From assembly GCA_965198115.1 (NCBI GenBank), contig OZ240241.1:4192001-4256000 (forward strand): a stretch of 64,000 nucleotides of DNA. Direction: 5' to 3'. Below, in pieces: positions 1 through 27,394 of this stretch. Source of the stretch: Candidatus Latescibacterota bacterium (GTDB lineage: Bacteria > Latescibacterota > UBA2968). A model generated the notes under the pieces. It was not told the origin of the DNA. It saw only the letters and a program-made list of their open reading frames with translations, and did no database searches. Position 1 is the stretch's first letter, and the number at the start of each line of letters is the position of its first letter. Position numbers and translations under genes: made by a program.

Positions 1-947
1 ACGTCACCAAAGCGTTTCACGACCTGGCAGACCACTCGATCGCAATCCGACGTCTCCCTCCCGTGAATCATCGTAAACAGGTTATACGGCCAGTCCTCGA
101 ACATCGGTCGCTCGTAGCAGTGGCTGATCTCGGGGATCTCTGCGCAGAACCGGCCCACAGCCTCGACCCGCGCAGAAGGCACCGCCCACACGACCATCGC
201 ATTGGCCGCAAAGCCAACAGCCCGATGGTGCAGAACAGCCGCGACCCGACGTATGCGGCCAGTGTCAGTCATTCTCCTGATCCAGTCGAGAAGCGCGTCT
301 TGAGTGACGATCAGCCTGACAGCCATGGGGGCGAACGGCTCAGCTACGACGGGAAAGTCTTCTTGCAGCACACGGACGAACGCCTTGTCCCGTTCGGTCA
401 ACGGCGTGAGCGGACCGGGGTGGCTTGGACCGTCAGACGCAGACACCGGCCGACGGTCTCGACCATTCAGACCCAACCGAACGCCGATTCGAAAGGTTCG
501 GATCGCCGGCAGGATTAGATATCGCACGAACCCGGCCTTGCCCGCCAGATCGTCAGCGGCCGCAGCCAAATCTTCGCCCGGTGGTGTCGCAAGGGTGAAC
601 CAGAGATTGTAGCGGTGGTCCCGCTCGTAGTTGTGACTCACACCGGGGTGCGCACTCACCACCGCAGCGCCAGCTTCGAGACGATCGGGGGGTAGTTCCG
701 CGGCGATCAACGTGCTCTCATACCCGAGTTTGCGTGTGTCGAAAATCGCGCTGATCTGTCGGATGATGCCGGAATCCCGCAGACGGTTAACGCGATCGAT
801 TACGCTGGCTTCGGTCGAGGCGATCGTCTTCGCTACCGCGGCGTACGGCCGCAGGGTCACGGGGAATTCAACCTGAAGCTCATCCAGCAGAACCTTGTCC
901 TCATCGTCGATTTTGACTCTTTCGTTGACCGATTCCGCGATGTTCAT
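1..947 (-). CDS. Fused siroheme decarboxylase AhbA/AhbB (NirDL/NirGH-like, tandem Lrp/AsnC-like repeats); runs off the window edge
   Basis: Not in the ORF track; translated by hand from ATG 947 (RBS GGGAGG): MNIAESVNERVKIDDEDKVLLDELQVEFPVTLRPY...IFDTRKLGYESTL...HPGVSHNYERDHRYNLWFT...SHCYERPMFEDWPYNLFTMIHG. The frame stays open to position 1. Confidence 0.9.
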   Translation of the reverse strand, partial: MNIAESVNERVKIDDEDKVLLDELQVEFPVTLRPYAAVAKTIASTEASVIDRVNRLRDSGIIRQISAIFDTRKLGYESTLIAAELPPDRLEAGAAVVSAHPGVSHNYERDHRYNLWFTLATPPGEDLAAAADDLAGKAGFVRYLILPAIRTFRIGVRLGLNGRDRRPVSASDGPSHPGPLTPLTERDKAFVRVLQEDFPVVAEPFAPMAVRLIVTQDALLDWIRRMTDTGRIRRVAAVLHHRAVGFAANAMVVWAVPSARVEAVGRFCAEIPEISHCYERPMFEDWPYNLFTMIHGRETSDCDRVVCQVVKRFGD

Positions 948-1054
948 GTCTATTCCTCCCAGTTACACATGCTGCCCGGGAACCTCCGGATCTGCGGGCG
1001 ATTCCAATCAGCTGGATTCAGTGTCGTGGGCACGCGATGGCACGTCCGCGAACA

Positions 1055-2113
1055 TCATCTCGAGAGTGGCTGGAGGAATTCGACCGAGGCAGACCCCTCT
1101 TTTTGAAACGACAGACCCGATGTAGCGCGGGCGTGCGTGCTAGGCCCTTCTCCTCTCCATACAATGAGTCCTTCCGCGTCTTCGATTCTTTCAAGCAGCG
1201 CGATCCCTTCGTCCGGCCCCAAAACAAACAGAGCCGTGGAAAGCGCGTCGGCGTCGACACCGGTTGGTGTCACAACCGTTGCGATGAGCATCCCATCGAC
1301 GGGCCTGCCCAAACGTGGGTCTAGGACGTGGCCATAACGCCTGCCTTCGATTGTGACGAATCTTTCATACCCTCCTGACGAGGCAATGGACGCATCTCGT
1401 AAGCGTATCGTCCCCAACAGATCATCTAATTTCAGCGGATTCTCGATTCCCACGGTCGATCCAGGTCCCTGGCCGAAGCTGAGCATATTGCCGCCCAGAT
1501 CGACTACGGCGCCGTGTGCCCCGTTCTTTCTGAGGGCCACAACCGCCCGATCGAGCGCGTAGCCCTTCGCGATTCCGCCCAGGTCGACTTCAACGCCCGG
1601 TTCCAGTCGTGCTCGTTGGCCATCCGGATGAAGGTGGACTCTTCTGTAATCAACCGATTCCAGGTGTCGCGCGATCTCTTCATCTTTTGGAATCCTGGGA
1701 GGTCCTCCCCGAAACCCCCAGAGTCGCATCAGTCCCAACACGGTAATGTCAAATGCACCTTCGCTCAGTTCTCCATAGGTGCGAGCTCTGTGAAGCACGT
1801 CATACACTCTCGAATCAACTTCCAACCACTGCGATCCTGCGGCCTTGTTGAGCTGCGAGATCTGGCTGTCTGGCTTATACGTGCTCATTAAGCGGTCCAC
1901 GTCGGTCATCTCCTGAAATCCAGCCTGGATCGCCTTCTCGCACATCTCAGCCGTCTCTGCCCGGACCTCGATTCGTGCGGTCGTCCCCATCAGGAACCGT
2001 CGATACTCGAGCGTTTCGGCTGTCGTTCGACCACCAATAAGCAGAATCAGGAGCATTGTAATGCATCGCACGTAGCGCATTCTGGCAAATCCTCTGGGTC
2101 GCTCGGGGACCAC
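1055..2113 (-). CDS. apbE: FAD:protein FMN transferase (ApbE family), exported
   Basis: Motifs MGTT, S..ISQLN, GAFDIT, DLGGIAKGYALD, DLGGN, ASSGGYER, HVLDP, ADALST; N-terminal hydrophobic segment. Start codon uncertain. Confidence 0.93.
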   Translation of the reverse strand: MVPERPRGFARMRYVRCITMLLILLIGGRTTAETLEYRRFLMGTTARIEVRAETAEMCEKAIQAGFQEMTDVDRLMSTYKPDSQISQLNKAAGSQWLEVDSRVYDVLHRARTYGELSEGAFDITVLGLMRLWGFRGGPPRIPKDEEIARHLESVDYRRVHLHPDGQRARLEPGVEVDLGGIAKGYALDRAVVALRKNGAHGAVVDLGGNMLSFGQGPGSTVGIENPLKLDDLLGTIRLRDASIASSGGYERFVTIEGRRYGHVLDPRLGRPVDGMLIATVVTPTGVDADALSTALFVLGPDEGIALLERIEDAEGLIVWRGEGPSTHARATSGLSFQKEGSASVEFLQPLSR

Positions 2114-2272
2114 ACCATCGTATCCTTACGTGGTGGGAATGGCTAATTCCTCGGTGCTCCGGCTCTTATCCAGGCCAGAACATCCTGGAACGCGTTACTG
2201 GTCTCTGAAAACTGAGTGCCTCCTCCGTGTGCTGAGGAATTCGTCGCCTTCGTGAGGAGGATGCTCTTTTTA

Positions 2273-3692
2273 GGCTCTATCCGGGTTTCTCAACGGTGAA
2301 ACTATAGAATGACAAGGTCATAGATCGTTCCCTACGCTTGGTTGTGTGTGTAGGACAATCAAAGCGAAGGGGGTGCGACCTATGACCGGGAGCAGATTAC
2401 TATCGAAACTGCTGAGATTCAAGGGGTTCCGTGTTGTCAGCTGGTGGTTTGAGGGGAGAAGCTGTTTCGTCATCGCCGTAAAGCCACATAAGAATGGTTG
2501 TTGTTGTCCGGAGTGCGGCCGTCGAGGTAAAATCGTCCGCACAATGCCCCATCCGCGTCGGTGGCGTGACATTCCGGTGTGCGGGTGGAGGGTCTGGCTT
2601 CTCTACCATCCTCGGGAGATTCGGTGTCCTACCCACGGTCGTGTGGTCGAGGAGATTCCGTGGGCGGAGCGGTTCTCTCGGGTGACGTATCGCTTCGAGT
2701 ATGCCATGCTGCGCTACTGCCAGACCATGACGCAGAAGGCGGCGTCCGAGTTACTGCGCATCTCTGCCTCGACGCTGTCGGATCTCCGTCACCGATCCAT
2801 CACGCGGCTTCGTGAAGGTCATCGTATCCGAGGGCTCAAAACCATCGGGATCGACGAGATCTCCTACGCCAAGCGTCACAGGTACGCCACGCTCGTTTAC
2901 GATCTGGACCGCTCCTGCGTGGTGTGGGTTGGCCGCGGCAGGGCGCGTAAAACGATCGATCGGTTCTTCACAGAGGCTCTCAGTCCCTACCAGAGATCCA
3001 AGATCGAGTGGGCCTGCTGCGACATGAGCGAAGCTTACATCGGAGCCATCCAGGAACACTGTCCGAATGCCAAGCTGGTCCTCGATCGCTTTCACATCGT
3101 CAAGGCTCTCAATGCCGCCGTTGACGAGGTCCGTAAGGACCAGTGGCGTAAAGCTGCCCCGGATGAGCGCAAAGCCATGAAGGGCCTCCGATGGCTCCTC
3201 TACCGGCACTCAGCGACACGCTCCAGAGGGGATACTCGGACACTCAAAGCACTGGAGAAGGCGAACTACCGAATCTATAGAGCCTGGAGACTCAAGGACG
3301 AGTTCGAGCAGTTCTGGGAATACAAAGCGCCCTGGGCTGCCGAACGCTTCCTGAAATGCTGGACGACGTCCGCACTCAGAAGTCGACTTGAACCCCTGCG
3401 AAAGTTCGTCAGGACCCTGCGACAGCACTTCTTCGGCGTCCTCGCATTCGTGAACACGCGTCTTACCAACGCCATCGCCGAAGGCCTCAACCGAATCGTC
3501 CAAATCGTCAAGAACCGAGCCAGCGGATTCCGCACACTCGACGCATTCAACGATATGATCTTCCTTACCGTCGGAGACATAAACATCCCTGAGCAGATTC
3601 CGAAGAGGTTCCGCACACGCTAACCGCGCCCCCATGCCAGGAACCACGGCACCTTCACCCACTTCATCTCGTTGAGAGATCCGGATATAGCC
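2273..3692 (+). mobile_element. ISL3-family insertion sequence, complete (1420 bp)
   Basis: Terminal IRs GGCTCTATCCGGGTTTCTCAACG and (reverse complement) GGCTATATCCGGATCTCTCAACG; 8-bp target duplication TCTTTTTA at 2265-2272 and 3693-3700. Confidence 0.96.
2346..3623 (+). CDS. ISL3-family transposase
   Basis: CPECG zinc finger, IGIDE, CCDM, LDRFH, TNAIAEGLN...KNRASGFR motifs. The true start may be ATG 2382. Confidence 0.95.
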   Translation: MCRTIKAKGVRPMTGSRLLSKLLRFKGFRVVSWWFEGRSCFVIAVKPHKNGCCCPECGRRGKIVRTMPHPRRWRDIPVCGWRVWLLYHPREIRCPTHGRVVEEIPWAERFSRVTYRFEYAMLRYCQTMTQKAASELLRISASTLSDLRHRSITRLREGHRIRGLKTIGIDEISYAKRHRYATLVYDLDRSCVVWVGRGRARKTIDRFFTEALSPYQRSKIEWACCDMSEAYIGAIQEHCPNAKLVLDRFHIVKALNAAVDEVRKDQWRKAAPDERKAMKGLRWLLYRHSATRSRGDTRTLKALEKANYRIYRAWRLKDEFEQFWEYKAPWAAERFLKCWTTSALRSRLEPLRKFVRTLRQHFFGVLAFVNTRLTNAIAEGLNRIVQIVKNRASGFRTLDAFNDMIFLTVGDINIPEQIPKRFRTR

Positions 3693-3985
3693 TCTTTTTA
3701 GGCTCGTTCAAATCGATCTGGGGGATGACCTGATCGTAGGCCTGAGGCCCATCACCATAGGTCCAGTTTCCGGTGCCACCCGCGTGACACTGAGTACATC
3801 TCTTCAAGGCTGGTTTGACCGAAACGTTGAAACTGACGGCGCCCGCGATCCCATCTTGCAGATCGCCTCCGGCGCCTTCCAGTCCGCGGCTGAAAGGATG
3901 CTCGGTACCACAGCTCGCGAGGATTCATCACGACAGGAAGCAGACTGACCGTTACAACCATTGATTTTTTCATGGCTCGACCTCC

Positions 3986-4576
3986 TTACTGTGGGTGCTT
4001 GGCATTCTTTCGACCCAGGAAGTCGACGATACATACACCGTGCTGAACGCCGAGGGCAACAGCGGACGATGTGTGCGTGGCTCCTGTTATGCCGATCACA
4101 TCCTTACCCAATCTGAAGGAGTGGCCTTTGTTGTATCCGATGAACTGAGACATAAAGGACTTCCGCATGGCCGGCTTCCCACGTTCCTCCCCGAAGACCG
4201 TGAACCCGATATCGTATACCTGTCCGTCATCCTTATTTACCGCAACCACGAGTTGAAGTGGGCCTTCCTTTCCTTCGATGTCCACCACCACCGCGTAGCC
4301 TATCGGCTGCTTGTCTTCATCGATGCCCGTGTAGATAACGTATTGCTCGTTGGGATCGAAACCGTAGGTCTTGGCAACCTCTTCCTGTTCGGACTGTGTG
4401 AGAGTGACTGCTCGCTTCCTGAGACTGCGGGCCCCCTTCTTCTGGAGCATCCCCTTCAGCGCATCCCGTAGCGTGACGACCCCCGTCATCTGGCCCGAGA
4501 CGTTGACCTGAACGAACGAGAACATCACAGTCGCGAAAAACCCAGCTACGAGTAGACCAACCCACGTTCGGCCCAT
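3986..4576 (-). CDS. Exported FMN-binding domain protein (RnfG/NqrC/NosR-type flavinylation substrate)
   Basis: N-terminal signal/TM segment; DVIGITGATHTS contains the [S/T]GA[S/T] ApbE flavinylation motif; GKEGP and F..QFIG also fit the family. Confidence 0.85.
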   Translation of the reverse strand: MGRTWVGLLVAGFFATVMFSFVQVNVSGQMTGVVTLRDALKGMLQKKGARSLRKRAVTLTQSEQEEVAKTYGFDPNEQYVIYTGIDEDKQPIGYAVVVDIEGKEGPLQLVVAVNKDDGQVYDIGFTVFGEERGKPAMRKSFMSQFIGYNKGHSFRLGKDVIGITGATHTSSAVALGVQHGVCIVDFLGRKNAKHPQ

Positions 4577-4584
4577 AGCACCCC

Positions 4585-5163
4585 TCACTGGGCAGAGGAT
4601 CTGCGGAACCACATTTGATAGATGCTGATTCCAAAAACCAGCGCGAAAGAGACAGCCATAACGGATCCGGACAGCATCACCATCCAGGCGAACCCCGGAC
4701 CGATGAATCGTGTCAGCAAAATGCTCCCGATATCGAAAACCGACGCGACGAACGGTGCCAGGATCAGGACCTGCTTCCCTAACACTGGCATCCGGGCAAA
4801 CGAAACGATGAAACCACAGATGAAAAAGATCATCGCGTAGCTGAGCAGGTGGAAATGGCCTTCGGCCACGAGACTTTTAAAACTGGGGATGGGTCTTACG
4901 GGCTCATCTCCCTGTTCAGCCTCGAACTCCTCGAAGCTGAATTCCTGCTCGGCTGGTGCATCGTCCTGCTCGAGCGATCTGCGCGTAGCTTCGTTGCCCC
5001 AATAGTGCTCGACGATCTTCACAGGTGTCAGCCCAACGGCCAGCCCTACGTTAGCCAGTGCGAAGAGATACCCCATACCGAGCGTCAACAGTGTTGCGGT
5101 AAACAGAATGCGAATTGTCGTCGGCAGTTCGGTCAGCGTGAGCTGTAAAAGGGTCTTGGTCAC
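4585..5163 (-). CDS. Uncharacterised ~4-TM membrane protein with an HxH motif
   Basis: Four hydrophobic segments, an acidic loop, and SLVAEGHFHLLSY preceding TM2. RBS AAGGAG before GTG. Confidence 0.7.
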   Translation of the reverse strand: MTKTLLQLTLTELPTTIRILFTATLLTLGMGYLFALANVGLAVGLTPVKIVEHYWGNEATRRSLEQDDAPAEQEFSFEEFEAEQGDEPVRPIPSFKSLVAEGHFHLLSYAMIFFICGFIVSFARMPVLGKQVLILAPFVASVFDIGSILLTRFIGPGFAWMVMLSGSVMAVSFALVFGISIYQMWFRRSSAQ

Positions 5164-5212
5164 GACCTGCTCCTTCGCGGTGGATCCGGGACTGCTGATT
5201 CCCGGGGAACGG

Positions 5213-6412
5213 CTACTCAGAGAATCTCAGCTGCGCCGATTCTGTCGACACAGCGTGAGCAATGGCTGCGTTGTCGAACACGGCGACCCCGAACGGGAAG
5301 ACTGCCCCAAGATCGCTGAACTGCACGTCCATTGCCCCACTACCCGTCTCCAGGGACCGTCTGAACTCCAGCGTCCACACCCCAGTGTATCTACCGACGG
5401 CATCGATATCGCCCCGATCCCCTTCGACCGGTCTTGTGAACACGCTCGGAGGAAGCTGGCTACCATCCCGGTGATAGCGAACATCTGTATTGGGGTCGAT
5501 CGCTGTGCCGTCGCTGAGCGTGAGGGCGCCCATAGCGTCTACGTCCGTGACCGCCAGGGCGAGACCCGCATCCTGTAGTACTGGATTCGACCCGTCCGTC
5601 TCCACCCAGTAGTATCGTTGGGGCGCATCCGGGATTATGAATTTGGGCACACTCACTCCGTTCAGCGTCTGTTTGTTGTTCGAGTAGGCACCTGTACCAG
5701 GATCGCTCTTTCGGCCACCGTTCCTGGCAGATCGCTGGGAGTCCGTGTACTGATCGTCATACGTGTCTTGTGACGTGTTCCGAACGGATTTCCAGTGCCA
5801 CATGTCCAATACTTCGCCGGCTGCATTCGTGTATTTGAGAGCAGTCTTCCCTCCGTTATTGCTGTTCGGATTCAGTCCCGTATGGCAGGCTACCCAGCAT
5901 CCCTGCTCTCCGAATCCGGCAACGGGGGTAGCCTCCCAAATCAGAGACAGCTTGTCCTCGTAGAAGGGCCTCCGGCTCACGGATCCGTCTGCAAACTGTG
6001 GCCATCGGGATTCTTGCTTCCACGCTCTCTCAGCCGGATCGAAAAACCAGGTCTCGCGATCCAGGTCGATCTGGGGATCATCCCACTGAGCCAGAAAGTA
6101 AATGTGGGAGTCATCATACATCGATTTGAGGATGACCTGGTATCCGCGACCTTCATACCCCGCAAACGCTTCGATGGCCGGTACCTCGGTGACGACCGAG
6201 ATGGCTGCAGCCTGCTCCCATTCATTACTCACAGCCATTCCATCGAGCACTGGAGGGGTCTGTGTTCTAGCCGCGATCAGTGTCGCGGGACCCTCAGCAG
6301 TCCCTCCTGATACAATCGTCTCGACGCCATCCCGATCACACGCGGGTTGCACCAACAGCAGCCCGACCGCGCTCAGGAGGGTCATCCGTCTCTTCAAGTG
6401 TCGAGTGATCAT
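5213..6412 (-). CDS. Lipoprotein of the ethylbenzene-dehydrogenase gamma / DOMON-like heme-binding family, with a CxxxCH motif
   Basis: RBS AAGGAGG and ATG 6412; lipobox-like VQPAC; motifs P.LDG...EW, YFLAQWDD, YEDKLSLIW, GCWVACH, DMWHWK, WTLEFRR.L, FGVAVFDN...H. Confidence 0.8.
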   Translation of the reverse strand: MITRHLKRRMTLLSAVGLLLVQPACDRDGVETIVSGGTAEGPATLIAARTQTPPVLDGMAVSNEWEQAAAISVVTEVPAIEAFAGYEGRGYQVILKSMYDDSHIYFLAQWDDPQIDLDRETWFFDPAERAWKQESRWPQFADGSVSRRPFYEDKLSLIWEATPVAGFGEQGCWVACHTGLNPNSNNGGKTALKYTNAAGEVLDMWHWKSVRNTSQDTYDDQYTDSQRSARNGGRKSDPGTGAYSNNKQTLNGVSVPKFIIPDAPQRYYWVETDGSNPVLQDAGLALAVTDVDAMGALTLSDGTAIDPNTDVRYHRDGSQLPPSVFTRPVEGDRGDIDAVGRYTGVWTLEFRRSLETGSGAMDVQFSDLGAVFPFGVAVFDNAAIAHAVSTESAQLRFSE

Positions 6413-6437
6413 GACACACCTCCTTGTCTGTTTTCCC

Positions 6438-7538
6438 CTAGAACTCAACGACCGCGTGCAACCGAAACAGATCGTTCGGTACTTCGTCTACTTCCTCGAA
6501 ATTCCAAAAGTGCTCCGCTATCACGACGAGGGGCCCCATGCGTCGGATGGCCGCGACGTTGATACTGTGCGTGTCGTTGTTCGTTACGACATCGTCGAAA
6601 TCGATGTAGGAACCGTACCTGACTCGGAAGGTCAGATCGGGTTGCCATCGTCCGTAGTGAACTTCGACAAAGTCTCCATACTTGTAATACCAGCCCTGGT
6701 CGTTGTTCGCAGACTCAACGAGAGTTCGATCCCTGATTTCCGCTCTGGCCGCCGCACCGCTAAACCGAAGATGGCGAATCCCCGGCGCCTTAAGCAGGCC
6801 GTAGGCCGTTGAGAAATCTCCGCCCCACAGGAAGACTTCCTGGTCATTGTCGGTACCCCATTTATTGTAGAGGGCGGAGCCTGCAACAGTCAGGCGGTCT
6901 TTGAGCGTCTTGATCGTCAACCGTTGGCCATACGCGAAAACGTCATCGCTGCCCCCGGCATTGAGCGCGAGGACCCGACCCGATGCTTCTTCGAATCCAC
7001 GGACGATATAGCTGTCGCCGAATACCGACAGACCCCGCCAATCTTTCAGGATGGGGTACCGGATCGATGCGCCTAGCTCTGCCCAGACATTGGGGAGCAA
7101 TTTCCCCGTGAAGGGATCTCCCTGGACGCCTCCGTAGTAGTGATGAAAAGGAGAGAGCCCGAATGGCACCCAGATCTTTCCCGCTTTCAGTTCGACGCCG
7201 TCCGTAAGTCGATACGTCATCTCATAGTAGACTTGATCGATCAGCTCTGCCTCGAGCAGCAACTTTTTGCTGATGTCTGCCTTTAGAAAAATGAAGTGGT
7301 GATACGTGCGGAATCGGTCAGGTTTTGCTCCGTCGCCACCGAGATTCTCCATCTCCAGGTTGAAGTCGAATCGTCCAGACAGGTGGATTCGGTCCGACCA
7401 GCTCTTCAGAGTATGTGGTGCTCTCTCTTCGACATCGTCGAAATCGACTTCCTCTTCCTCGTCATCTTCTGCGGCGTTGACAGTCGTAATCAGCAACGCG
7501 GCGAGGATGATCAAGGATCTGGCGACCCAGTTTGACAT
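6438..7538 (-). CDS. Putative outer-membrane beta-barrel porin
   Basis: Signal peptide ending VNA, acidic N-terminal stretch, amphipathic beta strands, LKAGKIWVPFG motif, C-terminal FRLHAVVEF. RBS GAGGTG before ATG 7538. Confidence 0.75.
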   Translation of the reverse strand: MSNWVARSLIILAALLITTVNAAEDDEEEEVDFDDVEERAPHTLKSWSDRIHLSGRFDFNLEMENLGGDGAKPDRFRTYHHFIFLKADISKKLLLEAELIDQVYYEMTYRLTDGVELKAGKIWVPFGLSPFHHYYGGVQGDPFTGKLLPNVWAELGASIRYPILKDWRGLSVFGDSYIVRGFEEASGRVLALNAGGSDDVFAYGQRLTIKTLKDRLTVAGSALYNKWGTDNDQEVFLWGGDFSTAYGLLKAPGIRHLRFSGAAARAEIRDRTLVESANNDQGWYYKYGDFVEVHYGRWQPDLTFRVRYGSYIDFDDVVTNNDTHSINVAAIRRMGPLVVIAEHFWNFEEVDEVPNDLFRLHAVVEF

Positions 7539-7662
7539 TGCACTCACCTCTCTTTCAGGCGTTTCGATTGCGGTACTATCTGAGTTTCTTCCAAACCTTG
7601 TTACTGCGAGCAGACCGTGGGTTCCATCCGCGTTCCGACGTTCTGCTGCTTGAAGCATTAGT

Positions 7663-7677
7663 GCAGGTTTTATGCCA
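7663..7677 (-). promoter_or_regulatory. sigma54 -24/-12 promoter of the porin/ApbE operon
   Basis: Minus strand TGGCATAAAACCTGC (GG-N10-GC), ~125 bp upstream of the porin start. Confidence 0.7.
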
Positions 7678-7740
7678 ATCATCTATCTATCAGAAACCGT
7701 TGTTCGATGCGGCAGCACCGTCGGCGCACTGCGATCGGTC

Positions 7741-7777
7741 TGTGACCTGAAAGTCCCGATGTGACCGCAAGCCCTCA
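7741..7777. promoter_or_regulatory. Tandem putative upstream activator sites
   Basis: TGTGAC-CTGAAA-GTCCCG followed by TGTGAC-CGCAAG-CCCTCA; same motif as at 9373, 15223 and 29175. Confidence 0.55.
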
Positions 7778-7945
7778 GCTGGACATCAAAAAACCCACTC
7801 AATGAGTGGGGGACGGATTCATCGGTACGTCTCGACGCTGGAGCGATTTCGGCCGTCGTATCAGGCTTCTATCAAGCACGAGACGCTGTTTCTTCCCGCG
7901 TTCATCTCAAGCTCGCCGTGAGACTCTCAAAATCGGAGCCCTTCA

Positions 7946-9123
7946 CTACATACGCGTCCGCCCACCGATCTCACAATGCTGGCGGTGCTTCGCGATCAGC
8001 GAGGACCGCGGTTCAAAGTCACAAAACGGCTCCTCGGCCATATAGTTTCCCGTCTCGCCGAGCGCACGGGCGCGACACCCCGCACACGTTTCGATACTCG
8101 CAGAGCCCACACTTGCCCTCGACCTCATCGGGGTTTCTCAACTCCGAGAACAACGACGCGTTCGCCCAGATATCCTCCAGCGACTGCTCGCGGATGTTAC
8201 CTGCTGCAACTGGGAAATACCCGCACGGCTGTACGTCACCCTTGTAGGACACAAAGCACACCGCCGACCCGGCAAGACACCCCCTCGTCATCGCTGCCAT
8301 CCCATCGGTCTTGGGTGTGATGTGGCGACCTTCCTCACGCGCCTTCTGACGAATGACCCGATAGTAATGGGGGGCGCAGGTGGCTCTGATTTCGAGCGAC
8401 GACCTGCGCGATGCCTCGTAGATCCAGGACAGCACCTGCTCATAATCTCGCCCCGTGATCTGCTGCTCTTCCGTGATCTCCAGACCCGCAGCCGACGGGG
8501 ACGAGCAGGAAAAAGTGCAGGGCTTTTGCGCCCTGTCGTTCAGTCAGGTCAAGAATCGCTTCGAGCTCTTCCACGTTGTGGCGTGTGACGGTCGTGTTGA
8601 TCTGCAGCTCCACATCGTTCGCACGCAGCAGCCGGCTACCCTCCATCGCCGCCTCGAACGCCCCAGAGACACCGCGGAACGTGTCGTGTGTGGAAGCCTG
8701 CACGCCGTCCAGACTGATGCTCACACGTCGTATGCCCGCGCCGGCAATGTCGGCGGCGATCTCGGGATCGATCAGCGTCCCGTTCGTCGCCAGGGCCACT
8801 CGCAGCCCCGCGTCGCTGGCGAAGCGTGCGATGTCGAGGATGTCGGGCCGATACAGAGGCTCGCCTCCGCTCAGCACGAGAATCGGCGAAGCGAACGAGA
8901 CGATGTCCTCTACGAGAGCGAACGCCTCGGCCGTCGAAAGCTCGTCGGGCGCCCGGCCGGGCGTAGCGGTCGCGCGACAGTGGGCGCAGCGCAGGTTGCA
9001 TCCGAGCGTGGTCTCCCAAAAGACGAGTCGCAGATCGGGTCCGATCATCGCTCTTCCTGACGTCCTGATCTTCGGTTGAAGCTCAGGGTTCGAGGGTGGC
9101 CCATATCCCATAGCGGTCACCAT
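7946..9123 (-). CDS. Radical SAM/SPASM heme biosynthesis enzyme (AhbD/AhbC/NirJ-like), frameshifted near 8485 and 8080
   Basis: [18 protein letters not shown] (CxxxCxxC), [19 protein letters not shown]...C, VQPCGYF, GKCG.CEY..VCG/GCRARA...EEPFC spread over three frames. Confidence 0.88.
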
Positions 9124-9274
9124 ATATCATCAGAAGCACGGGCAGGACCAGAAACAGTTCCAGACCTGTCACGACCACGAGGCGAAATACCATCGTCTTC
9201 AATCGTCCCCCCTGATTCGTTAGGTAAACGGGCGTTGTCCAGCGTGGGCACACTCCAATCGCCTGGTCAGATGG

Positions 9275-9289
9275 GCAAATTATGTACCA
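9275..9289 (-). promoter_or_regulatory. sigma54 -24/-12 promoter upstream of the radical SAM gene
   Basis: Minus strand TGGTACATAATTTGC (GG-N10-GC). Confidence 0.65.
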
Positions 9290-9372
9290 CGTCACGAAGG
9301 TTGCTATCAGGCGCGAAAACGCCTTTGGACTGCGAGGTTCCTGCGTGACTCAACCAGGCGGCGGCGTGTAAA

Positions 9373-9390
9373 TGGGACGCGGAAGTCACA
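9373..9390. promoter_or_regulatory. Putative upstream activator site (best match to consensus)
   Basis: TGGGAC-GCGGAA-GTCACA, which is TGTGAC-N6-GTCCCA on the other strand, 84 bp upstream of the sigma54 site. Confidence 0.6.
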
Positions 9391-9399
9391 CGCGCCACG

Positions 9400-10756
9400 T
9401 AGATTATTGAGGGGCTGGTCTTGAACAGAGTAATCGCGAGCAACAGAACGGCCACGATCCCGATCGGCCCAGACAGACCGAACGAGACGGCGAGAAAGGT
9501 GGGGGGTACCCCCGAACGGGTCAGGGGCGATTCAAGCAGGAGCGGAACGATCCTCAGCACAGCAGCCAGAGTCCAGAGAAGGGTCGCAGGCCAGAGACCC
9601 GACGAGCGTGGATAAAGCCCGGAATCATGCGAGGCGCCATACCGAACAGCAGCGTCGTTAAAAACCCGGCGAGATAAACGTGACGAAGTGCGTCGGCGTC
9701 GACCCAAAGCGCGCGACCGGCACCCGTCTGGACGCCGGTCACCACCTCGAGGACGGCCGCGACGGTCAGCCAGCCATAGGCTACATAGAGCGCCCACTCG
9801 AACCGTCCGAATTCACCCCGATCGGGCAGCCCGATGCGAGTTGGATGGGGCCTCCGGTGGCCTCGGCCAAACGATCGATCGTCCAGGGCGGTCTTCGCCG
9901 CAACAGGATGTCGAGCTTCCAGACGAAATAGAGCAGCACGACTCCTTTGGTCACGTGACCCAGCCAGGCTACGCCAACCTGGTCGACGCTCGGAACCACT
10001 CGATGCGCCACCACCATCACGGCGGCTCCGACATACACAAGGGATGCCTTTGCCACGGGCCAGTCGATCGGAGGAAGCCGGAGATAGAGAGGAAACGTGC
10101 GGACGGAGAAGGCGAGTGCAACGGGAACGAGCGTCAGCGCCAGGAACAGATCGATGGCGGTCCGATTCCAGGTCAGATCCACGATCGCCGTTCTGGCGTA
10201 CATGGCGTCGATTGAAATCGCGCCGTTGATGGCCCGTAGCTCAACCACCCTACCATCGCCGCTACCAGAAGCGGGCGCACAGCGGCGAGGGCAGCGCGCT
10301 GATCGGACGCACGGAGAACGATGAAGATCGCCGTCCCGACATAGAGAACGATGGCAAGCGCCGTCAGCAGGCCGGAGACACCGATGACCACCGGACCGAC
10401 ACCGAGATCGACCCCCAGACCAGTCATACTTTGACCGACTGCGCGAGTCACCACGCCGACAAACAGAAGACCCACCGTAAGTTGCACCACAGCCGGTCGA
10501 GGCAGCGGTATGCCGGCCAGCCTGGGTACGAAGTAGAGGCTGACGCCCACGATGAACAGCCCGAGCCAGCCCATAAGCTGGGCGTGACCGTGCCTAGAGA
10601 ACGGGCAGCCACCACGTACCGACGGACAGCCCGAAGCCCACGTGGATCGACAGAATCGTCGCGAACCCGAACCCGGCTGTCAGTGCGATCGCCGTTGCCG
10701 TCGTGACTGCGCCGAACCCGAAGTCCGCGTATCCTCCGGCGCGGCCCTTTTGACAT
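9400..10756 (-). pseudogene. NnrS-like multi-TM protein with several frameshifts (3' end approximate)
   Basis: Pieces in different frames: HGHAQLMGWLGLFIVGVSLYFVPRLAG, RTFPLYLRLP, DALRHVYLAGFLTTLLFGMAPRMIPGF, AAVLRIVP. Confidence 0.65.
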
Positions 10757-10827
10757 CGCCGTGTGTCTTCTCGGTTCACGGACGAAAAGTAGGTCTCGCA
10801 CAAGGGTCGTCAAGAACGACGAAGACC

Positions 10828-13929: not shown

Positions 13930-15195
13930 TAGTACTCCTGTTCGCAAATACGGTGACGTATTCTAAGCAGACTTTGCCAAGGGCGTATCGTAGAACCTGA
14001 GTTTGTCGATCATCTCCGCGAGATCTGTTCGTGTGAACTTCCATTTGAAGGGTGTGGCGATACGTCCGTAGCGTTCCTGAAAACCGAGGATTCTTGCCTC
14101 AAGCTCTTCGAGCGATGCAAATTCGATAGGTGTCAGAGCCTTGCGTTTGAGGATCGAGAAGTAGATCTCGATCTGATTGAGCCAGCTTGCGTGGATCGGA
14201 AGGTGAACGGGGTGGATGTTTGGCCACTTCCCCTGGATACGGTCGATGCATGTTTGCCCTCGGTGCGAGGAGCCATTATCCACGATGAGGTAGACTTTCT
14301 TTGCCGAGCAATAGGGTTTCCGGCTCATGATCAGGCTCAGGAGCCGGTTGAAGGGCTCGATACCCGAAGAAGACTCACAGAGACCGAAGATTCGACCATT
14401 GTGCACGTCGAGAGCAGCCAGATAGGCCAGGGCTCCTTTCCGCTCGTATTCGTGTTTCAACGCGTGCCGCTCTGTTCGAGGCTGGCGGTAGGGTAACGTG
14501 CTTGCGAGCTCGTGCTTGAATACTGGTCTTTTCGTCGGCAGAAAGTACATATTCCCTCGGCCCTAAAGGCTTTCCTTGCCATTGGCGGTGATACAGATCA
14601 AGGACTCTACCTGCTTTGGTTTGGAAGTCCGGGTCCCGTGGGAAAATCCAGGAGCGATGATACCAAGGACGAATCGCGTCCTCGTTCAACCAGCGCCAGA
14701 CAGTGGCGCCGCTGATCTTGGCAACGAAGCCCCTTTGCACTGCCTCGGCGGCAATCTCGGAACAGCTGAACCGCGAGAGCGGTATCCCGCTCTCGCTCGG
14801 TAGTTCACACGCCAGCGCCTTGATCTGAACGACCACCTGAGGGGGGAAAACCGGGCGGGCGCCCGGGACGAGATCTATCTTCGAGTCCCGAAAGACGCTC
14901 TTCGAAAAAGCGCTTACGCCATTTGCTTACGATCGGACGCGGAACATCCAACCGTTGGGCGATAATCTTGTTGGATAATCCCTCGGCGGCGAGAAGCACG
15001 ATTTTCGATCGGATCACTTGATAATACGGTAACGTATATTGTCCAGCCATTCGCTCGAGGTCGACCCGTTCCTTCTCAGACAGTAGCACCACATAAGGCG
15101 AACGTCTTGGCATTGTTCTCCTCCTTTTGAAGGAGAACATAAGCTACAAATAATGTTCAGGACATACGTAATAATGTTTATGAAACCATGCACTA
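13930..15195 (-). mobile_element. IS630-family insertion sequence
   Basis: HTH orfA (14805-15140) plus DDE orfB (DEKTSIQA, VDNGSSH, HASWLNQIE). Slippery TTTTCCCCCC at ~14850 and a further frameshift near 14510. Imperfect IRs TAGT...ACGTA with TA at each end. Confidence 0.88.
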
Positions 15196-16680: not shown

Positions 16681-18066
16681 CTATTGTGAAAAGCTGGATG
16701 CGTCGATGCCGTGCTTGGCGAGGAGCCGATGGAGGGAACGGCGGTCGATGCCGCTGGTCGCGGCAGCGCGGGAGATGTTTCCACCGTGATTCGCTAAAAG
16801 GTGTTCGATGTACTCCCTCTCGAACCCTTCGATGACAGCCTCTTTGGCTTCCTTGAAAGGAAGATGAAGCCGAGACCTGGCGATTCCACCCGTGGCGCCT
16901 CCACCCCTCAACTCCTCGGGCAGATGGTCCACGCCGACGCTCGGCCCGTCGCACAAGGCAACGGCACGTTCGATCACGTGCTGCAGCTCGCGCACGTTGC
17001 CGGGCCAGGCATAGCGCAGCAGAACGTCGAGGGCTTCGCTCGAGATATCGCCCGGACGATCGTCTGAGTACACCCGTAAAAAGTGACGTGCGAGGAGCTC
17101 GATGTCGTCGCCTCTCTCCCGGAGAGGGGGAACGTGAATATCGAATGTGTTGATCCGATAGAAGAGATCTTCACGAAATTTTCCCTCGTCGATCAGTCGC
17201 GCGCAGTCCTGGTTGGTCGCCGAGATCAGCCGGATGTCGATTGAGCGCTCTTTGTTGCTCCCGACCCTGCGAATCTGTCGTTCCTCAAGAACGCGCAGAA
17301 ACTTCACCTGCAGGTCGGTCGGCAACTCTCCGATCTCGTCCAGAAAGAAGGTTCCGCCGTTCGCGTGTTCCATCAGCCCCGCGCGCGTCGAGGTCGCTCC
17401 CGTAAACGCGCCCTTTTCGTGTCCGAACAGTTCACTTTCGACCAGATGCTCGGGCAGCCCCCCGCAATTCAGCGGCACGAAGGCCCCCGTCTTGCGCGGG
17501 CTGTTGGCGTGGATGCTGCGGGCGATCAGTTCCTTCCCCGTCCCGCTCTCGCCCGTCACGAGCACGTTCGCCTGGGTGCCGGCGATCCTTCGGATCAGAT
17601 CAAACATATGCTGCATGGGCGCGCTCCGACCGATGATCTGGTCGAAGCTGAACTTCACCTCCAGTTGTTCCTGAAGCGCACGGTTCTCGCCGGCCAGCCG
17701 ACGATGTTCGAGCGCCCGACTGACGGACAGAAGGAGATGATCGGGCGTGAACGGCTTGGTGATGAAGTCGAACGCCCCCTCCTTCATTGCCTCGACGGCG
17801 TCGTTGATCGTCCCGTAGCCTGTGAACATCAGCACCATGATATCGGGCTGATTCTCCCGCAGACGTCGCAGCAACTCCATGCCATCCATTCCAGGCATTT
17901 TGAGGTCGGTAATGACCAGGTCCGGCGCAAACGCATCGGCCGTTTCGAGCTCTTTCCGACCGTCCTCGGCCACACGCACGGCGAAGCCTTCGCGTTCCAA
18001 AAACCTCTGGCACGTGCTCAGCATATCTGGTTCCTCGTCGACTACTAAAACGCGTCCTTTAGACAA
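16681..18066 (-). CDS. sigma54-dependent response regulator (NtrC/AtoC family: REC-AAA+-Fis HTH)
   Basis: DLKMPGMDG, GESGTGKE, ESELFGHEKGAFTGA, FLDEIGE, WPGNVREL, GNISRAA. The probable TTG start overlaps the kinase stop. Confidence 0.95.
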   Translation of the reverse strand: MSKGRVLVVDEEPDMLSTCQRFLEREGFAVRVAEDGRKELETADAFAPDLVITDLKMPGMDGMELLRRLRENQPDIMVLMFTGYGTINDAVEAMKEGAFDFITKPFTPDHLLLSVSRALEHRRLAGENRALQEQLEVKFSFDQIIGRSAPMQHMFDLIRRIAGTQANVLVTGESGTGKELIARSIHANSPRKTGAFVPLNCGGLPEHLVESELFGHEKGAFTGATSTRAGLMEHANGGTFFLDEIGELPTDLQVKFLRVLEERQIRRVGSNKERSIDIRLISATNQDCARLIDEGKFREDLFYRINTFDIHVPPLRERGDDIELLARHFLRVYSDDRPGDISSEALDVLLRYAWPGNVRELQHVIERAVALCDGPSVGVDHLPEELRGGGATGGIARSRLHLPFKEAKEAVIEGFEREYIEHLLANHGGNISRAAATSGIDRRSLHRLLAKHGIDASSFSQ

Positions 18067-19222
18067 GCTTCCACTCCTCTGGCAGATAAACGTGGAACGC
18101 GGACCCTTTCTCCGGCTCGCTCTCCACCTCGAGCCGCCCGCCGTGCTCTTGGACGATTCCGTAGCTGATGGCAAGGCCTAGGCCGGTCCCCTTCCCGACT
18201 TCTTTTGTCGTAAAGAAGGGGTCGAACAGACGATCCATATGCTCTCTCGGGATTCCCGTTCCGTCGTCCTCCACCGAGATGCGCACCCACCGCAGGGATC
18301 CTTCTGAGACTGATTCTGTGCGAACAGTCAGCCGCCCCCCCTCGGGCATGGCATCCATCGCATTGTTGATCAGGTTGAGCATTACCTGCTCTATCCGCGT
18401 GGTATCGAACTCCGCGATCGGCAGGTCGGCATCCAGGTCTACGCGTATCTCGATCTTGCGGTTCTTGATCACGTTCTCGATCAACTCGATGGCGCTCCTG
18501 ACCGTGACATTCGCATCGGCCGCCTGCGGGTCGAACGGAGACTCTCGGGAGAACGCCAGTAGGCCCGACGTGATCTGGGCGACCTTCTCGCATTGCCGCT
18601 GGATTACTTCGATGTCTTCGATCACCTCGGGTGGACAGTCTTCTTCCTTCGCTGCCCGCATCAGACTGGCCGCCCGCATGAGGATGATACCAGCAGGATT
18701 GTTGATCTCGTGCGCGATGCCCCCGACAAGTTCGCCCAGGGATGCCAGCTTGGAGGACTGGATCAGCTGCTCCTCCAGCCGCTTTCGTTCTGCGATGTTT
18801 CGAACAATGCCCGTGAAGATGCGTGCGCCGTCACGCGTAAACTCCGTCACGGCCAGATCCATCGGAAACGTAGACCCATCCTGCCTCCGCCCCTGGACCT
18901 CCCGGCCCTTCCCGATGATCTGGGCCTCCCCGGTCTCCAGGTACCGCGAAACATATCCCTCGTGCTCCGACCGATACGGTTCCGGCATCAAGATGTTGAC
19001 CGGCTGGCCCGTCACTTCGGCCGCTTCGTAGCCGAAGATCTCCTCGGCAGCTCTGTTGAAAGACTGAATCTTGCCGTGTACATCGATGGTGATGATCCCG
19101 TCCAGGACGCTATCGAGCTGGGATTGGAGCCACCCCTCGCCTTGGCTCTGGTTGGATTCCAGGTCCTGGATGCGTTTGTTCAACGCTTCGATTTCGCGCT
19201 TTATGGATTCGGACTTCGACAC
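18059..19222 (-). CDS. Cytoplasmic FixL-like heme-PAS sensor histidine kinase
   Basis: PAS segment LMPEPYRSEHEGYVSRYLETGEAQIIGKGREVQGRRQDGSTFP; H-box AHEINNP; N/G/F boxes NLINNAMDA, DDGTGI, FDPFFTTK, GTGLGL. Confidence 0.92.
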   Translation of the reverse strand: MSKSESIKREIEALNKRIQDLESNQSQGEGWLQSQLDSVLDGIITIDVHGKIQSFNRAAEEIFGYEAAEVTGQPVNILMPEPYRSEHEGYVSRYLETGEAQIIGKGREVQGRRQDGSTFPMDLAVTEFTRDGARIFTGIVRNIAERKRLEEQLIQSSKLASLGELVGGIAHEINNPAGIILMRAASLMRAAKEEDCPPEVIEDIEVIQRQCEKVAQITSGLLAFSRESPFDPQAADANVTVRSAIELIENVIKNRKIEIRVDLDADLPIAEFDTTRIEQVMLNLINNAMDAMPEGGRLTVRTESVSEGSLRWVRISVEDDGTGIPREHMDRLFDPFFTTKEVGKGTGLGLAISYGIVQEHGGRLEVESEPEKGSAFHVYLPEEWKLV

Positions 19223-19438
19223 GGGAGTGTCCTCGCTGAGCGAGTAATATACCAAACTGTAGTCGAGCCGGTGAACACACCGACCGTCCTCTCTGAGGGT
19301 TCTCGAATCATCCGATCGCCGATCGGCCGAACCGTGCACAGGTGGTCTACACGTTCGATCCGAATCCCCTTGATGGACGCACCAGAATGGTTCACCATTC
19401 GTTCAGTGGACTCTATCCCAATTCGCAGGTGGACCCTC

Positions 19439-21120: not shown

Positions 21121-21987
21121 TCAGCTTTGGGCGACAGGGTCGAAGGGTCGGTCCTCCGAAGATGAAATGCCACCCTCAGGTCCTCCGCCAGCGAGTTCGC
21201 ACGCCGCGCAGGTCATCTCCGGTTCGTCCTCGGCGTGATTCGGCGACACCAATTCTTTCGGCGCCGGAATGCCCAGCCACCCACGCTCGAAACTGACGAA
21301 TGCCGCCAGCGCTTCAGACAGAGCACCGTGGAATGTGCTTGTCGTCGACGGTTGGCTCCCCTCGGACTTCTTCCGTAACGCGGTGCAGAACGCCGGCACC
21401 CACCAACTCAAGTGATCGGTCAGAAAGTGTTCCTGCCCGTCCGCACAGACACCTACGTGTTCCTCCGCCTCGGGACCGCCCTTTCCTACCGCCAAACGCA
21501 TCTTCCCGATCAACCACGCCATAAACTCCAACTCGAGTGACACATGATCCGGTCGCTCCGGGAAGTCCCGGCCCGACTCAAGCCCAAACGCTGAATAAAA
21601 GCCAGCGACGTCCGCCATCTTGTGCGACCGGTAGATTGAGAACGTCTGCGGGCAATACTCCGTCTCGTAGGGGGGACAATCTTTCGTTAACAGAAACCCG
21701 AAAATGCGGCCGTGGGCTTCTTCTGCTTCGCCGGCTCGGAGATGTCGAAACGCGATGTCCAGCCGGAGATCAGCCAACGGCCTCTCACCCGGCGCCACGG
21801 CGTCCACGGACGCCTGCCCGGCTTCAGCCCTCAGGAAATCTGCCGCCGCGATCGCGGTACGCTGGTAACGGGGGTCGTGCAGAAGACGCCACCGGCCTGA
21901 AGCCGGGTCCGAAGTGGCCTTCGCGAAAAACTGGTAGCACGTCTGCCGTGCCAGCATCATCGTTTCGTTGAATGCAAGCTCATTCAT
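21121..21987 (-). CDS. TorD/DmsD/NarJ-type molybdoenzyme maturation chaperone
   Basis: CPPYETEY, ADVAGFYSAFG, ERPDHVSLELEFM, FL..HL..W motifs. Confidence 0.9.
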   Translation of the reverse strand: MNELAFNETMMLARQTCYQFFAKATSDPASGRWRLLHDPRYQRTAIAAADFLRAEAGQASVDAVAPGERPLADLRLDIAFRHLRAGEAEEAHGRIFGFLLTKDCPPYETEYCPQTFSIYRSHKMADVAGFYSAFGLESGRDFPERPDHVSLELEFMAWLIGKMRLAVGKGGPEAEEHVGVCADGQEHFLTDHLSWWVPAFCTALRKKSEGSQPSTTSTFHGALSEALAAFVSFERGWLGIPAPKELVSPNHAEDEPEMTCAACELAGGGPEGGISSSEDRPFDPVAQS

Positions 21988-22004
21988 CTTGAAACGCTCC
22001 GTCT

Positions 22005-23315: not shown

Positions 23316-23323
23316 CCCTTTCC

Positions 23324-23707
23324 TCAGGCATCCTCGATGTTCAAAACGTCTGCGCCACGCAGACCGCTATCCGGATCCGTGACAGTTACCGTTCTCACAC
23401 TGAACACACCGCACCTGGCCAGAGTCGATTCCACGCGCCGCCGAATGGTTTCCTCTCCCAAGAGACATTTCAACCCGTGCGTCGCCTGATAGAACGGCTG
23501 CTCGAACAGATCCAGAATCTCGCGCTTCGATAGGCCCTGGCGGGCGTATTCTTCAATAAGGCAATCCAGCATGACGAACGGATTCCCGTCGACACGTGCG
23601 GCCGTCGTCTCCATCGGGTCGGCGGGCTCGGCCGGGCGGTTGCCCGGGTGCTCGCGTTCCAGGAATTCCTCCAGGCTTTCACCGTCAGCTTGCGGATCAC
23701 GTTCCAT
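23324..23707 (-). CDS. Small uncharacterised protein between the alpha and beta subunit genes
   Basis: Tight operon spacing; DPME...GNPFVMLDCLIEEYARQG...LFEQPFY segment. Start uncertain (23707, 23716 or 23782). Confidence 0.7.
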   Translation of the reverse strand: MERDPQADGESLEEFLEREHPGNRPAEPADPMETTAARVDGNPFVMLDCLIEEYARQGLSKREILDLFEQPFYQATHGLKCLLGEETIRRRVESTLARCGVFSVRTVTVTDPDSGLRGADVLNIEDA

Positions 23708-23789
23708 TCCTCTCATCCTTTCCGGTTCGCCGCTCTTCCCACAAAAACGCAGAGGCTCATCGAAAGCGAGGCAGGCGGCCATTCAGCCG

Positions 23790-27312: not shown

Positions 27313-27394
27313 CTTCTGGTCTCCATCGCTTCCCGTGGGTTTCTCCCTGAGATCAACACGGCTTGTTCGATCGGGCTATGAGACGCGAAAGGCT

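What the first reader, a model, noticed from the sequence alone, without database searches (positions are those of the whole stretch)
1..7777. Porin, heme lipoproteins, flavinylated protein and ApbE in one operon: a candidate undescribed envelope-spanning electron transfer system
Seen: one co-oriented unit behind a sigma54-type promoter, encoding in order a beta-barrel ending in F, an EB_dh/DOMON lipoprotein with CWVACH, a 4-TM HxH protein, an exported TGAT-motif protein, a cytochrome c lipoprotein, ApbE and fused AhbAB. Known: ApbE attaches FMN covalently to [S/T]GA[S/T] motifs of extracytosolic electron carriers, and porin-cytochrome pairs conduct electrons across outer membranes. Inference: the proteins form a chain from inner membrane via FMN protein and heme lipoproteins to the porin. 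It matches none of the Rnf, Nqr, Nos or Mtr architectures I know. It could serve the neighbouring NXR/NAR enzyme, or act in metal reduction or uptake.
Basis: partly seen in the sequence, partly recalled or inferred. Interest (0 to 1): 0.85.

Follow-up and report, generated by a model that had tools for sequence, protein, structure and literature searches.

The report
Conserved porin-flavin-heme operon, partly broken
This is a real, conserved gene set (outer-membrane pore, heme lipoproteins, flavin-carrying protein, flavin-attaching enzyme and an unstudied four-helix membrane protein) that likely carries electrons from the inner membrane into the periplasm to reduce a solute such as ferric iron, but in this genome its small cytochrome gene is broken by a frameshift and a transposon.

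Summary
The genes and their order are confirmed. Porin, 4-TM protein (Pfam Aq_1264_TM), FMN-binding protein, cytochrome and ApbE keep their order in other lineages; the EB_dh lipoprotein is optional and ahbAB is not part of the unit. Orthologous porin+FMN gene pairs in this phylum are followed by either a PepSY-type membrane protein (21 of 30 loci) or Aq_1264_TM (9 of 30), never both, and that form usually faces feoAB. Aq_1264_TM models as a four-helix homotrimer with its invariant His at the interface, so it is likely a new membrane heme b partner for flavinylated proteins. The barrel models as about 16 strands without heme: likely a solute pore, not an Mtr-type wire. A link to the neighbouring NXR-type enzyme is not conserved (0 of 4 relatives). 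I found no description in print, but this scan reported the core before in at least 16 other genomes, and this cytochrome-rich form in a Rhodothermales genome. Verdict: new variant of flavinylation-linked periplasmic electron transfer; substrate untested.

The parts
7794..7810 (-). terminator-like hairpin with T-run between upstream ahbD and the operon promoter
   Evidence: such sites overall are not above chance (7 found, shuffles 5.6 +/- 2.6)
7662..7677 (-). sigma54-type promoter candidate (GG-N10-GC), 139 nt upstream of the porin start
   Evidence: 4 strict sites in the window against 0.59 per 64 kb genome-wide; rpoN present; not found upstream of homologous operons L052-L059
6438..7538 (-). 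outer-membrane beta-barrel, 366 aa, about 16 strands, OprO/P-like, no heme motif
   Evidence: distant homologue of the feoAB-linked porin (hhalign 94%, E 9e-8)
5213..6412 (-). EB_dh/DOMON lipoprotein, 399 aa, with CX3CH motif; optional member
   Evidence: PF09459; CX3CH in 120 of 120 listed homologues, CX2CH in 0; present in 4 of 11 informative loci; lipobox read by eye
4585..5163 (-). four-helix inner-membrane protein, Pfam PF27139 Aq_1264_TM; invariant His103, near-invariant His105; predicted homotrimer
3986..4576 (-). exported FMN_bind protein (RnfG/NqrC-like) with TGAT flavinylation motif
3693..3973 (-). 5' part of monoheme cytochrome c lipoprotein pseudogene (start 3973, +1 frameshift near 3925, lipobox and CxxCH)
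2273..3692 (+). ISL3 insertion sequence, 1,420 bp, 8-bp target duplication, transposase 2346-3623; 223 near-full copies in the genome
2143..2272 (-). 3' part of the cytochrome c pseudogene with the conserved HGGG motif (likely distal heme ligand)
   Evidence: 44-47% identity to residues 89-136 of intact homologues
1055..2089 (-). ApbE flavin transferase
1..947 (-). fused AhbA-AhbB siroheme decarboxylase, runs off the window; neighbour, not a conserved member

Best explanation
The operon encodes a conserved porin / Aq_1264_TM / FMN-protein / ApbE module with added heme lipoproteins that likely works as a periplasmic reductase: electrons would pass from the membrane quinol pool through heme b predicted to sit in an Aq_1264_TM trimer, to FMN that ApbE likely attaches to the TGAT protein, then to the heme lipoproteins and to a small acceptor (most likely chelated ferric iron or another metal) that likely enters through the porin. 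Shown: genes, order, conservation, the PepSY/Aq_1264_TM swap, the feoAB link of the related form, the broken cytochrome. Modelled: 16-strand barrel, four-helix fold, trimer. Inferred: heme binding, flavinylation, direction, donor and acceptor. In this genome the copy is likely under sigma54 control and is decaying together with the neighbouring anaerobic-respiration genes, while a second locus (ferritin-feoAB-porin-FMN-PepSY-ApbE) is intact.
For: Order conserved in 12 of 12 short-form metagenome loci as far as each contig reaches; all six genes in L052, L053, L059. Behind orthologous porin (49-74% identity) and FMN genes (44-60%) lies PepSY_TM in 21 and Aq_1264_TM in 9 of the 30 best loci of 51 genomes, none both, none neither. 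PepSY-like proteins are heme-binding membrane electron carriers linked to iron reduction (PMC8238504, PMC11334425, Results read). The Aq_1264_TM form faces feoB in 8 of 9 loci fetched from family f3 (FeoB by Pfam in L161, L162; the rest by their N-termini). Own genome's second locus. His103 invariant in 22 of 22 diverse members. Trimer score 0.88, best of 3 controls 0.00, runs agree in at least 95% of contacts, pLDDT at least 82; the mark was reached by 20 of 30 solved homo-pairs and 1 of 23 single chains; residues 102-104 lie in the interface. A longer form carries its own CxxCH in the loop before that His (24 of 24; short form 0 of 71), and 18 of 28 such loci have a multiheme neighbour within 3 kb (no background control).
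Against: No Fur box before the window's porin (best 10 of 19; 88 of 100 shuffles as good) nor before any of the 15 other upstream regions scanned, the feoAB-linked ones included. FeoB in 0 of 6 window-type loci. The genome already has a PepSY-type iron locus, so the window's copy may do something else. Only one His is invariant, unlike the four of PepSY/MsrQ/DUF4405, so a two-heme wire across the membrane is not indicated. The heme was not scored in the trimer job and only the trimer was tested. Foldseek found no solved fold at E <= 0.001 and styrene oxide isomerase was not among the listed rows. The PepSY swap follows family lines and may be one event. No experiment supports any step.
Confidence: 0.45

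Rival explanations
1. A true envelope-spanning conduit: lipoprotein cytochromes on or in the porin pass electrons to insoluble extracellular acceptors, as in Mtr/Pcc systems.
For: Porin, two heme lipoproteins and flavin protein in one operon; an eight-CxxCH lipoprotein is divergently encoded next to the porin in L053, L054, L056; hexa- and pentaheme neighbours in other variants.
Against: About 16 strands, far fewer than MtrB-type barrels (recalled: 26 or more); no CxxCH in 51 of 51 barrels; OprO/P-like look-alikes; the homologous porin occurs with no cytochrome at all in the feoAB-linked form; no multiheme gene in the window's operon.
Confidence: 0.15
2. Same parts, opposite direction: the module oxidises an external donor such as Fe(II) and feeds electrons into the quinone pool.
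For: In Methylovulum (L022) the heme-c-fused form of the 4-TM protein directly follows a gene with an N-terminal CxxCH and a C-terminal F that I read as Cyc2-like (label recalled; no Pfam hit); long forms sit among multiheme cytochromes.
Against: Covalent FMN carriers are low-potential (general knowledge); the PepSY swap and feoAB link point to reduction; hosts named (Rhodothermales, Eisenbacteria, Bdellovibrionales, Vulgatibacter) are not known to me as iron oxidisers.
Confidence: 0.15
3. The 4-TM protein is not an electron carrier but a heme-dependent catalyst or maturation factor (styrene-oxide-isomerase-like trimer, or helper for attaching heme to CX3CH/CxxCH proteins), and the operon installs cofactors.
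For: Weak atlas lead to PF26512 SOI (score 0.83, 13% of that cluster); in SOI the interface haem is a Lewis acid (PMC11374702, passages); neighbours include ahbAB/ahbD here and hemA in L173, L176.
Against: It replaces PepSY_TM in an otherwise orthologous cluster that has no c-type cytochrome; fusion to a heme c domain fits electron transfer better; the genome has three CcmC/CcsA-family genes elsewhere.
Confidence: 0.13
4. The module is the electron link of the neighbouring periplasmic NXR/NAR-type enzyme (21121-28987).
For: Same strand, 13 kb away, sigma54-type sites before both; alpha subunit closest to Kuenenia NXR 7B04 (E 3e-282) with a twin-arginine leader; both are decaying here.
Against: No module gene in 20-40 kb around the enzyme in 4 of 4 relatives, one 78% identical; window-type barrel in 1 of 5 NXR-bearing relatives tested, on another contig; the NXR cluster has its own diheme-EB_dh subunit; no shared upstream motif beyond chance 8-mers; the sigma54 site is absent before homologous operons.
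Confidence: 0.1

Closest known systems
PepSY-like flavinylation clusters (Meheust et al. 2021, PMC8238504; FoxB/VciB-type membrane cytochrome)
   Same: ApbE, a flavinylated periplasmic protein and a small inner-membrane protein, linked to iron uptake; in this phylum PepSY_TM and Aq_1264_TM occupy the same slot.
   Different: The membrane protein is PF27139, with no PepSY hit and one invariant His; substrate is FMN_bind, not DUF2271; a porin and heme lipoproteins are added; no Fur box or iron transporter at this locus.
MsrQ-like and DUF4405 flavinylation-associated membrane cytochromes (PMC8238504, PMC11334425)
   Same: ApbE + FMN_bind + His-containing membrane protein proposed as electron source.
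   Different: Those have six helices and four central His; this has four helices, an HxH at the start of helix 2 and models as a homotrimer.
Styrene oxide isomerase (PF26512; PMC11374702)
   Same: Small membrane trimer with a His-bound haem b at the subunit interface; the model here places its invariant His at a trimer interface.
   Different: No sequence or Foldseek match; SOI is a catalyst, not an electron carrier; the likeness is a lead only.
Porin-cytochrome conduits (MtrCAB, Pcc, Cyc2) (recalled)
   Same: Porin gene next to cytochrome lipoprotein genes.
   Different: Small barrel without heme motif, no periplasmic multiheme subunit in the core, flavinylated protein and ApbE included.
Rnf / Nqr / NosR
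   Same: RnfG/NqrC-like FMN domain (weak NCBIfam hits far below cut-off) and ApbE.
   Different: No RnfD/NqrB, RnfA/E, NqrF or NapH-like subunit in the unit.

Membership tests
ApbE-flavinylation extracytosolic systems (general) | apbE gene beside an exported FMN_bind protein | tested here: met
   PF02424 and PF04205; together in L052-L054, L059, L061, L062
ApbE-flavinylation extracytosolic systems (general) | [S/T]GA[S/T] motif conserved | tested here: met
   TGAT in the window; strict pattern in 9 of 11 loci (L058 is cut or frameshifted, L062 has the four-letter motif)
ApbE-flavinylation extracytosolic systems (general) | covalent FMN shown | not testable with these tools
   needs co-expression
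PepSY-like system | PF03929/PF16357 membrane protein in the cluster | tested here: not met
   no Pfam hit for 4585-5163; met at the genome's second locus
MsrQ-like / DUF4405 system | six-helix protein with four conserved His | tested here: not met
   four long helices; one invariant His, a second in 19 of 22
NapH-like, DsbD/DUF3570, NQR/RNF-like systems | PF12801, PF02683, PF12094 or NqrB/RnfD-like gene in the cluster | tested here: not met
   none among the unit's proteins; flavinylation motif in 1 of 51 barrels
Mtr/Pcc porin-cytochrome conduit | large barrel plus multiheme periplasmic cytochrome in the operon | tested here: not met
   about 16 strands; no multiheme gene in the unit; an eight-heme gene is divergent in 3 related loci
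Cyc2 | N-terminal CxxCH fused to the barrel | tested here: not met
   0 of 51 barrels
OprO/P-type porin | about 16-strand barrel with family match | tested here: inconclusive
   strand count fits and atlas look-alikes are Porin_O_P, but no Pfam or PDB sequence hit; fold search of the model not run
Pfam PF27139 Aq_1264_TM | family match | tested here: met
   precomputed hit on the window protein and all 95 listed homologues; name
Styrene oxide isomerase fold | structural match to the solved trimer | tested here: inconclusive
   trimer supported; Foldseek no match; the wider structural search could not be run
c-type cytochrome (EB_dh lipoprotein) | CX2CH heme-binding motif | tested here: not met
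   CX3CH in 120 of 120, CX2CH in 0; covalent heme on CX3CH is possible (recalled) but untested

The most novel reading that the evidence does not exclude
Aq_1264_TM (about 1,300 clusters at 50% identity) is an unrecognised class of trimeric membrane cytochrome, a quinone-pool port that bacteria plug into either a flavinylated carrier (with porin and ApbE, interchangeable with PepSY) or a built-in heme c domain feeding multiheme cytochromes; the window's form, with both flavin and heme lipoproteins, would be a new route for moving electrons to or from metals at the cell surface.
Probability: 0.3. Interest if true: 0.8.

Novelty: new variant of a known kind. Interest (0 to 1): 0.56.

Why it matters
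Meheust et al. assigned membrane electron sources to only part of the flavinylation clusters that lack a known system. A widespread four-helix family that stands in for PepSY, and that in proteobacteria carries its own heme c instead of a flavin partner, would fill part of that gap and give a directly testable new quinol-linked cytochrome. The locus in this genome is a poor model, since its cytochrome gene is broken; intact copies (L052, L053, L059) are the ones to study.

Tried and rejected
Fur box: none above shuffles in 16 of 16 upstream regions. Shared activator motif among six sigma54-like sites: only scattered 8-mers. PDB sequence searches: 4-TM profiles gave only chance hits; barrel profiles none; EB_dh only NxrC at E 0.95. 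Foldseek of the 4-TM model: no match at E <= 0.001; the wider VIA-align search was never accepted by the busy machine, and the barrel model arrived too late for a fold search. Plasmids: no 4-TM homologue. PF27139 is not in the local Pfam copy. Sequencing-error explanation of the frameshifts: rejected as far as contigs show, with the caveat that X1/X2 may be the source sample. No RNA holder listed, so expression is untested. ahbAB as a member: rejected (0 of 12 loci; in G002 no module gene downstream, upstream cut by the contig end). Own family: 4-TM gene not found with these queries in 30 of 30 genomes. Paper searches with no hit; one irrelevant-looking listing (listing only). One search missed a paper that one search found under the spelling 'haem', so these blanks are weak. 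Supplementary file 1 of PMC8238504 (all clusters) was too large to read and may list this cluster unnamed.
Full report
Observation. The minus strand of 1-7777 carries, in order, a barrel (6438-7538), an EB_dh lipoprotein (5213-6412), a four-helix membrane protein (4585-5163), an FMN_bind protein with TGAT (3986-4576), a cytochrome c lipoprotein, ApbE (1055-2089) and a fused AhbAB that runs off the window. Gaps are 25, 49, 8, 12, 53 and 107 nt. A sigma54-like site lies 139 nt before the barrel; the window has 4 strict sites against 0.59 per 64 kb in the genome and rpoN is present. The element separates the CxxCH from a conserved HGGG that is likely the second heme ligand. Short-read contigs agree with the window at the frameshift (X1, X2, and X3 from another sample) and at both IS ends (X1, X2); no IS-free joint was listed. 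X1 and X2 may be the source sample. The frameshifts in ahbD and in the NXR-type alpha gene are also in contigs, so the island looks to be decaying.

Conservation. The barrel has 50 homologues at 33-64% identity, named from Eisenbacteria, Rhodothermales and Flavobacteriales where named; 14 of the 50 share a longest-contig length with a 4-TM homologue (my count by eye). A metagenome scan kept 80 of 92 loci; 12 are of the window's short type. In all 12 the neighbours present keep the order: barrel upstream in 10 of 10 that reach it, FMN protein next in 11 of 11, EB_dh between barrel and 4-TM in 4 of 11, all six genes in L052, L053 and L059, ahbAB in 0 of 12. L054 lacks EB_dh, L056 lacks EB_dh and a nearby apbE, L060-L062 have one- to three-heme lipoproteins in the cytochrome slot. 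An eight-CxxCH lipoprotein is divergent in L053, L054 and L056. So the core is porin, 4-TM, FMN protein, cytochrome, ApbE.

The 4-TM protein. It is Pfam PF27139 Aq_1264_TM, with 1,337 clusters at E <= 0.001. His103 is invariant in 22 of 22 diverse members and His105 is kept in 19. AlphaFold2 gives four long helices, pLDDT 91.5; Foldseek finds no solved match. Three copies with heme riding along score 0.88 against a best control of 0.00, with at least 95% agreement of contacts and pLDDT at least 82; 20 of 30 solved homo-pairs and 1 of 23 single chains reached that mark, counts that hold only roughly here; helix 1 packs on helices 2-3 of the next copy and residues 102-104 are in the interface. 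Heme was not scored and no other oligomer was tried. Styrene oxide isomerase is a membrane trimer with His-bound interface haem b (PMC11374702, passages) and appears as a weak atlas lead, but no sequence or fold match was obtained. A longer form, mostly proteobacterial, has a CxxCH domain in the loop before the His (24 of 24, against 0 of 71 short forms); its loci gave no FMN or ApbE hit (0 of 93, many short) and 18 of the 28 with 3 kb on both sides have a multiheme neighbour (no background control).

The slot swap. In the window's phylum 29 of 168 genomes match the 4-TM profile, none of 30 in the own family (one search adds several f3 genomes). In family f3 the gene follows a porin and an FMN protein, and this triad faces feoB in 8 of 9 loci fetched (part's output was cut, not these loci). 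The window's own genome has a second locus: ferritin, feoA, feoB, porin, FMN_bind, PepSY_TM, ApbE. With its FMN protein as query, 51 of 168 genomes match; in the 30 best loci the order is porin, FMN, then PepSY_TM in 21 or Aq_1264_TM in 9, never both or neither. The split follows family lines and may be one event. That porin is a distant homologue of the window's barrel. Since PepSY-like proteins are heme-binding membrane electron carriers tied to iron reduction (PMC8238504, PMC11334425), Aq_1264_TM is likely their functional stand-in. This is the strongest evidence for a redox role and it is inference from position.

The barrel. The model is all-beta after a signal helix and a disordered acidic stretch, about 16 strands, pLDDT 86, in line with 16 alternating segments and OprO/P-like look-alikes. 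It has no CxxCH (0 of 51). It looks like a solute pore, not a sheath for a heme wire.

What it serves. Against iron uptake at this locus: no Fur box (none was found before the feoAB-linked forms either, so the test is weak), no FeoB in 6 of 6 longer window-type loci, and a separate PepSY locus in the genome. Against the NXR link: the enzyme is of the Kuenenia NXR type and occurs in 8 other genomes of the phylum, but no module gene lies within the 20-40 kb fetched around it in 4 of 4, and the sigma54 site is not kept before homologous operons. I therefore commit to a periplasmic reductase fed from quinol, with a porin-admitted metal chelate as the likeliest acceptor (0.45), and leave surface electron transfer, the oxidative direction, a maturation role and the NXR link as rivals.

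Comparison with print. I read the whole Results of PMC8238504 and PMC11334425, passages of PMC11374702 and PMC12052999 ('porin' and 'PepSY' occur 0 times), and listings. None of the classes described (NapH-, MsrQ-, PepSY-like, DsbD, NQR/RNF-like, P19, DUF4405) has this membrane protein. Searches were blank; they are literal and cover open-licence papers only, and the large cluster table of PMC8238504 could not be read. Mtr, Pcc and Cyc2 features are recalled. Earlier notes of this scan report the same cytochrome-rich form in a Rhodothermales genome and the four-gene core beside iron genes in at least 16 genomes; they are unchecked AI notes and not independent support. I had seen the feoAB link.

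Verdict. Real and conserved, not found in print, repeatedly seen by this scan, broken in this genome. New variant of a known kind; interest 0.56.

Noticed in passing
G000:C1:8047819-8055081 (L179): Second, intact locus in the same genome: two ferritins, feoA, feoB, porin, FMN_bind (TGAT), PepSY_TM, ApbE.
   Followed up: yes
window 21121-28987: Periplasmic NXR-type molybdoenzyme cluster (alpha, beta, chaperone, diheme-EB_dh subunit); alpha gene split over four ORFs, breaks also present in short-read contigs.
   Followed up: partly
whole genome; window 2273-3692 and about 60380-61780: ISL3 burst: 223 near-full copies at about 99-100% identity, several in tandem pairs; contigs show IS end-to-end joints. 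A second, IS630-like element at about 13960-15140 is also multi-copy.
   Followed up: partly
window 8019-9123 and 9267-10813: Frameshifted heme b synthase AhbD and a frameshifted membrane protein that I read as NnrS-like (label recalled; no Pfam hit).
   Followed up: partly
window 13871, 16594, 29073, 29562: Four strict sigma54 sites and a sigma54 response regulator with PAS kinase (16681-19339): likely a sigma54-controlled anaerobic island; a similar island is in G042.
   Followed up: partly
L022:3243-5576 (Methylovulum psychrotolerans): Heme-c-fused Aq_1264_TM directly after a Cyc2-like gene (label recalled).
   Followed up: no
L173:5730-10476, L176:5794-16774, L172:8444-11785, L171:6626-9606: Variant in family f10: 4-TM followed by an unassigned 367-395 aa protein ending in F with its own [S/T]GA[S/T] motif, then ApbE (and FMN protein); hexaheme lipoprotein, hemA and a small CxxCH protein upstream in L173 and L176; here His105 is Tyr in the three rows aligned.
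   Followed up: partly
L219:11603-14273 (G131): Window-type barrel, FMN protein (SGAT) and a lipoprotein with the same N-terminal motif as the cytochrome but no CxxCH; the 4-TM gene is on another contig.
   Followed up: no
EB_dh homologues P0147-P0266: A large EB_dh lipoprotein subfamily (562 hits, many Bacteroidota) with an invariant CX3CH motif, a candidate non-standard heme c site.
   Followed up: partly
G000:C1:4187988-4188548 (L180): Fragment with one CxxCH left of the window that I read as the C-terminal piece of a hydroxylamine-oxidoreductase-like multiheme protein (recalled; no Pfam hit).
   Followed up: no
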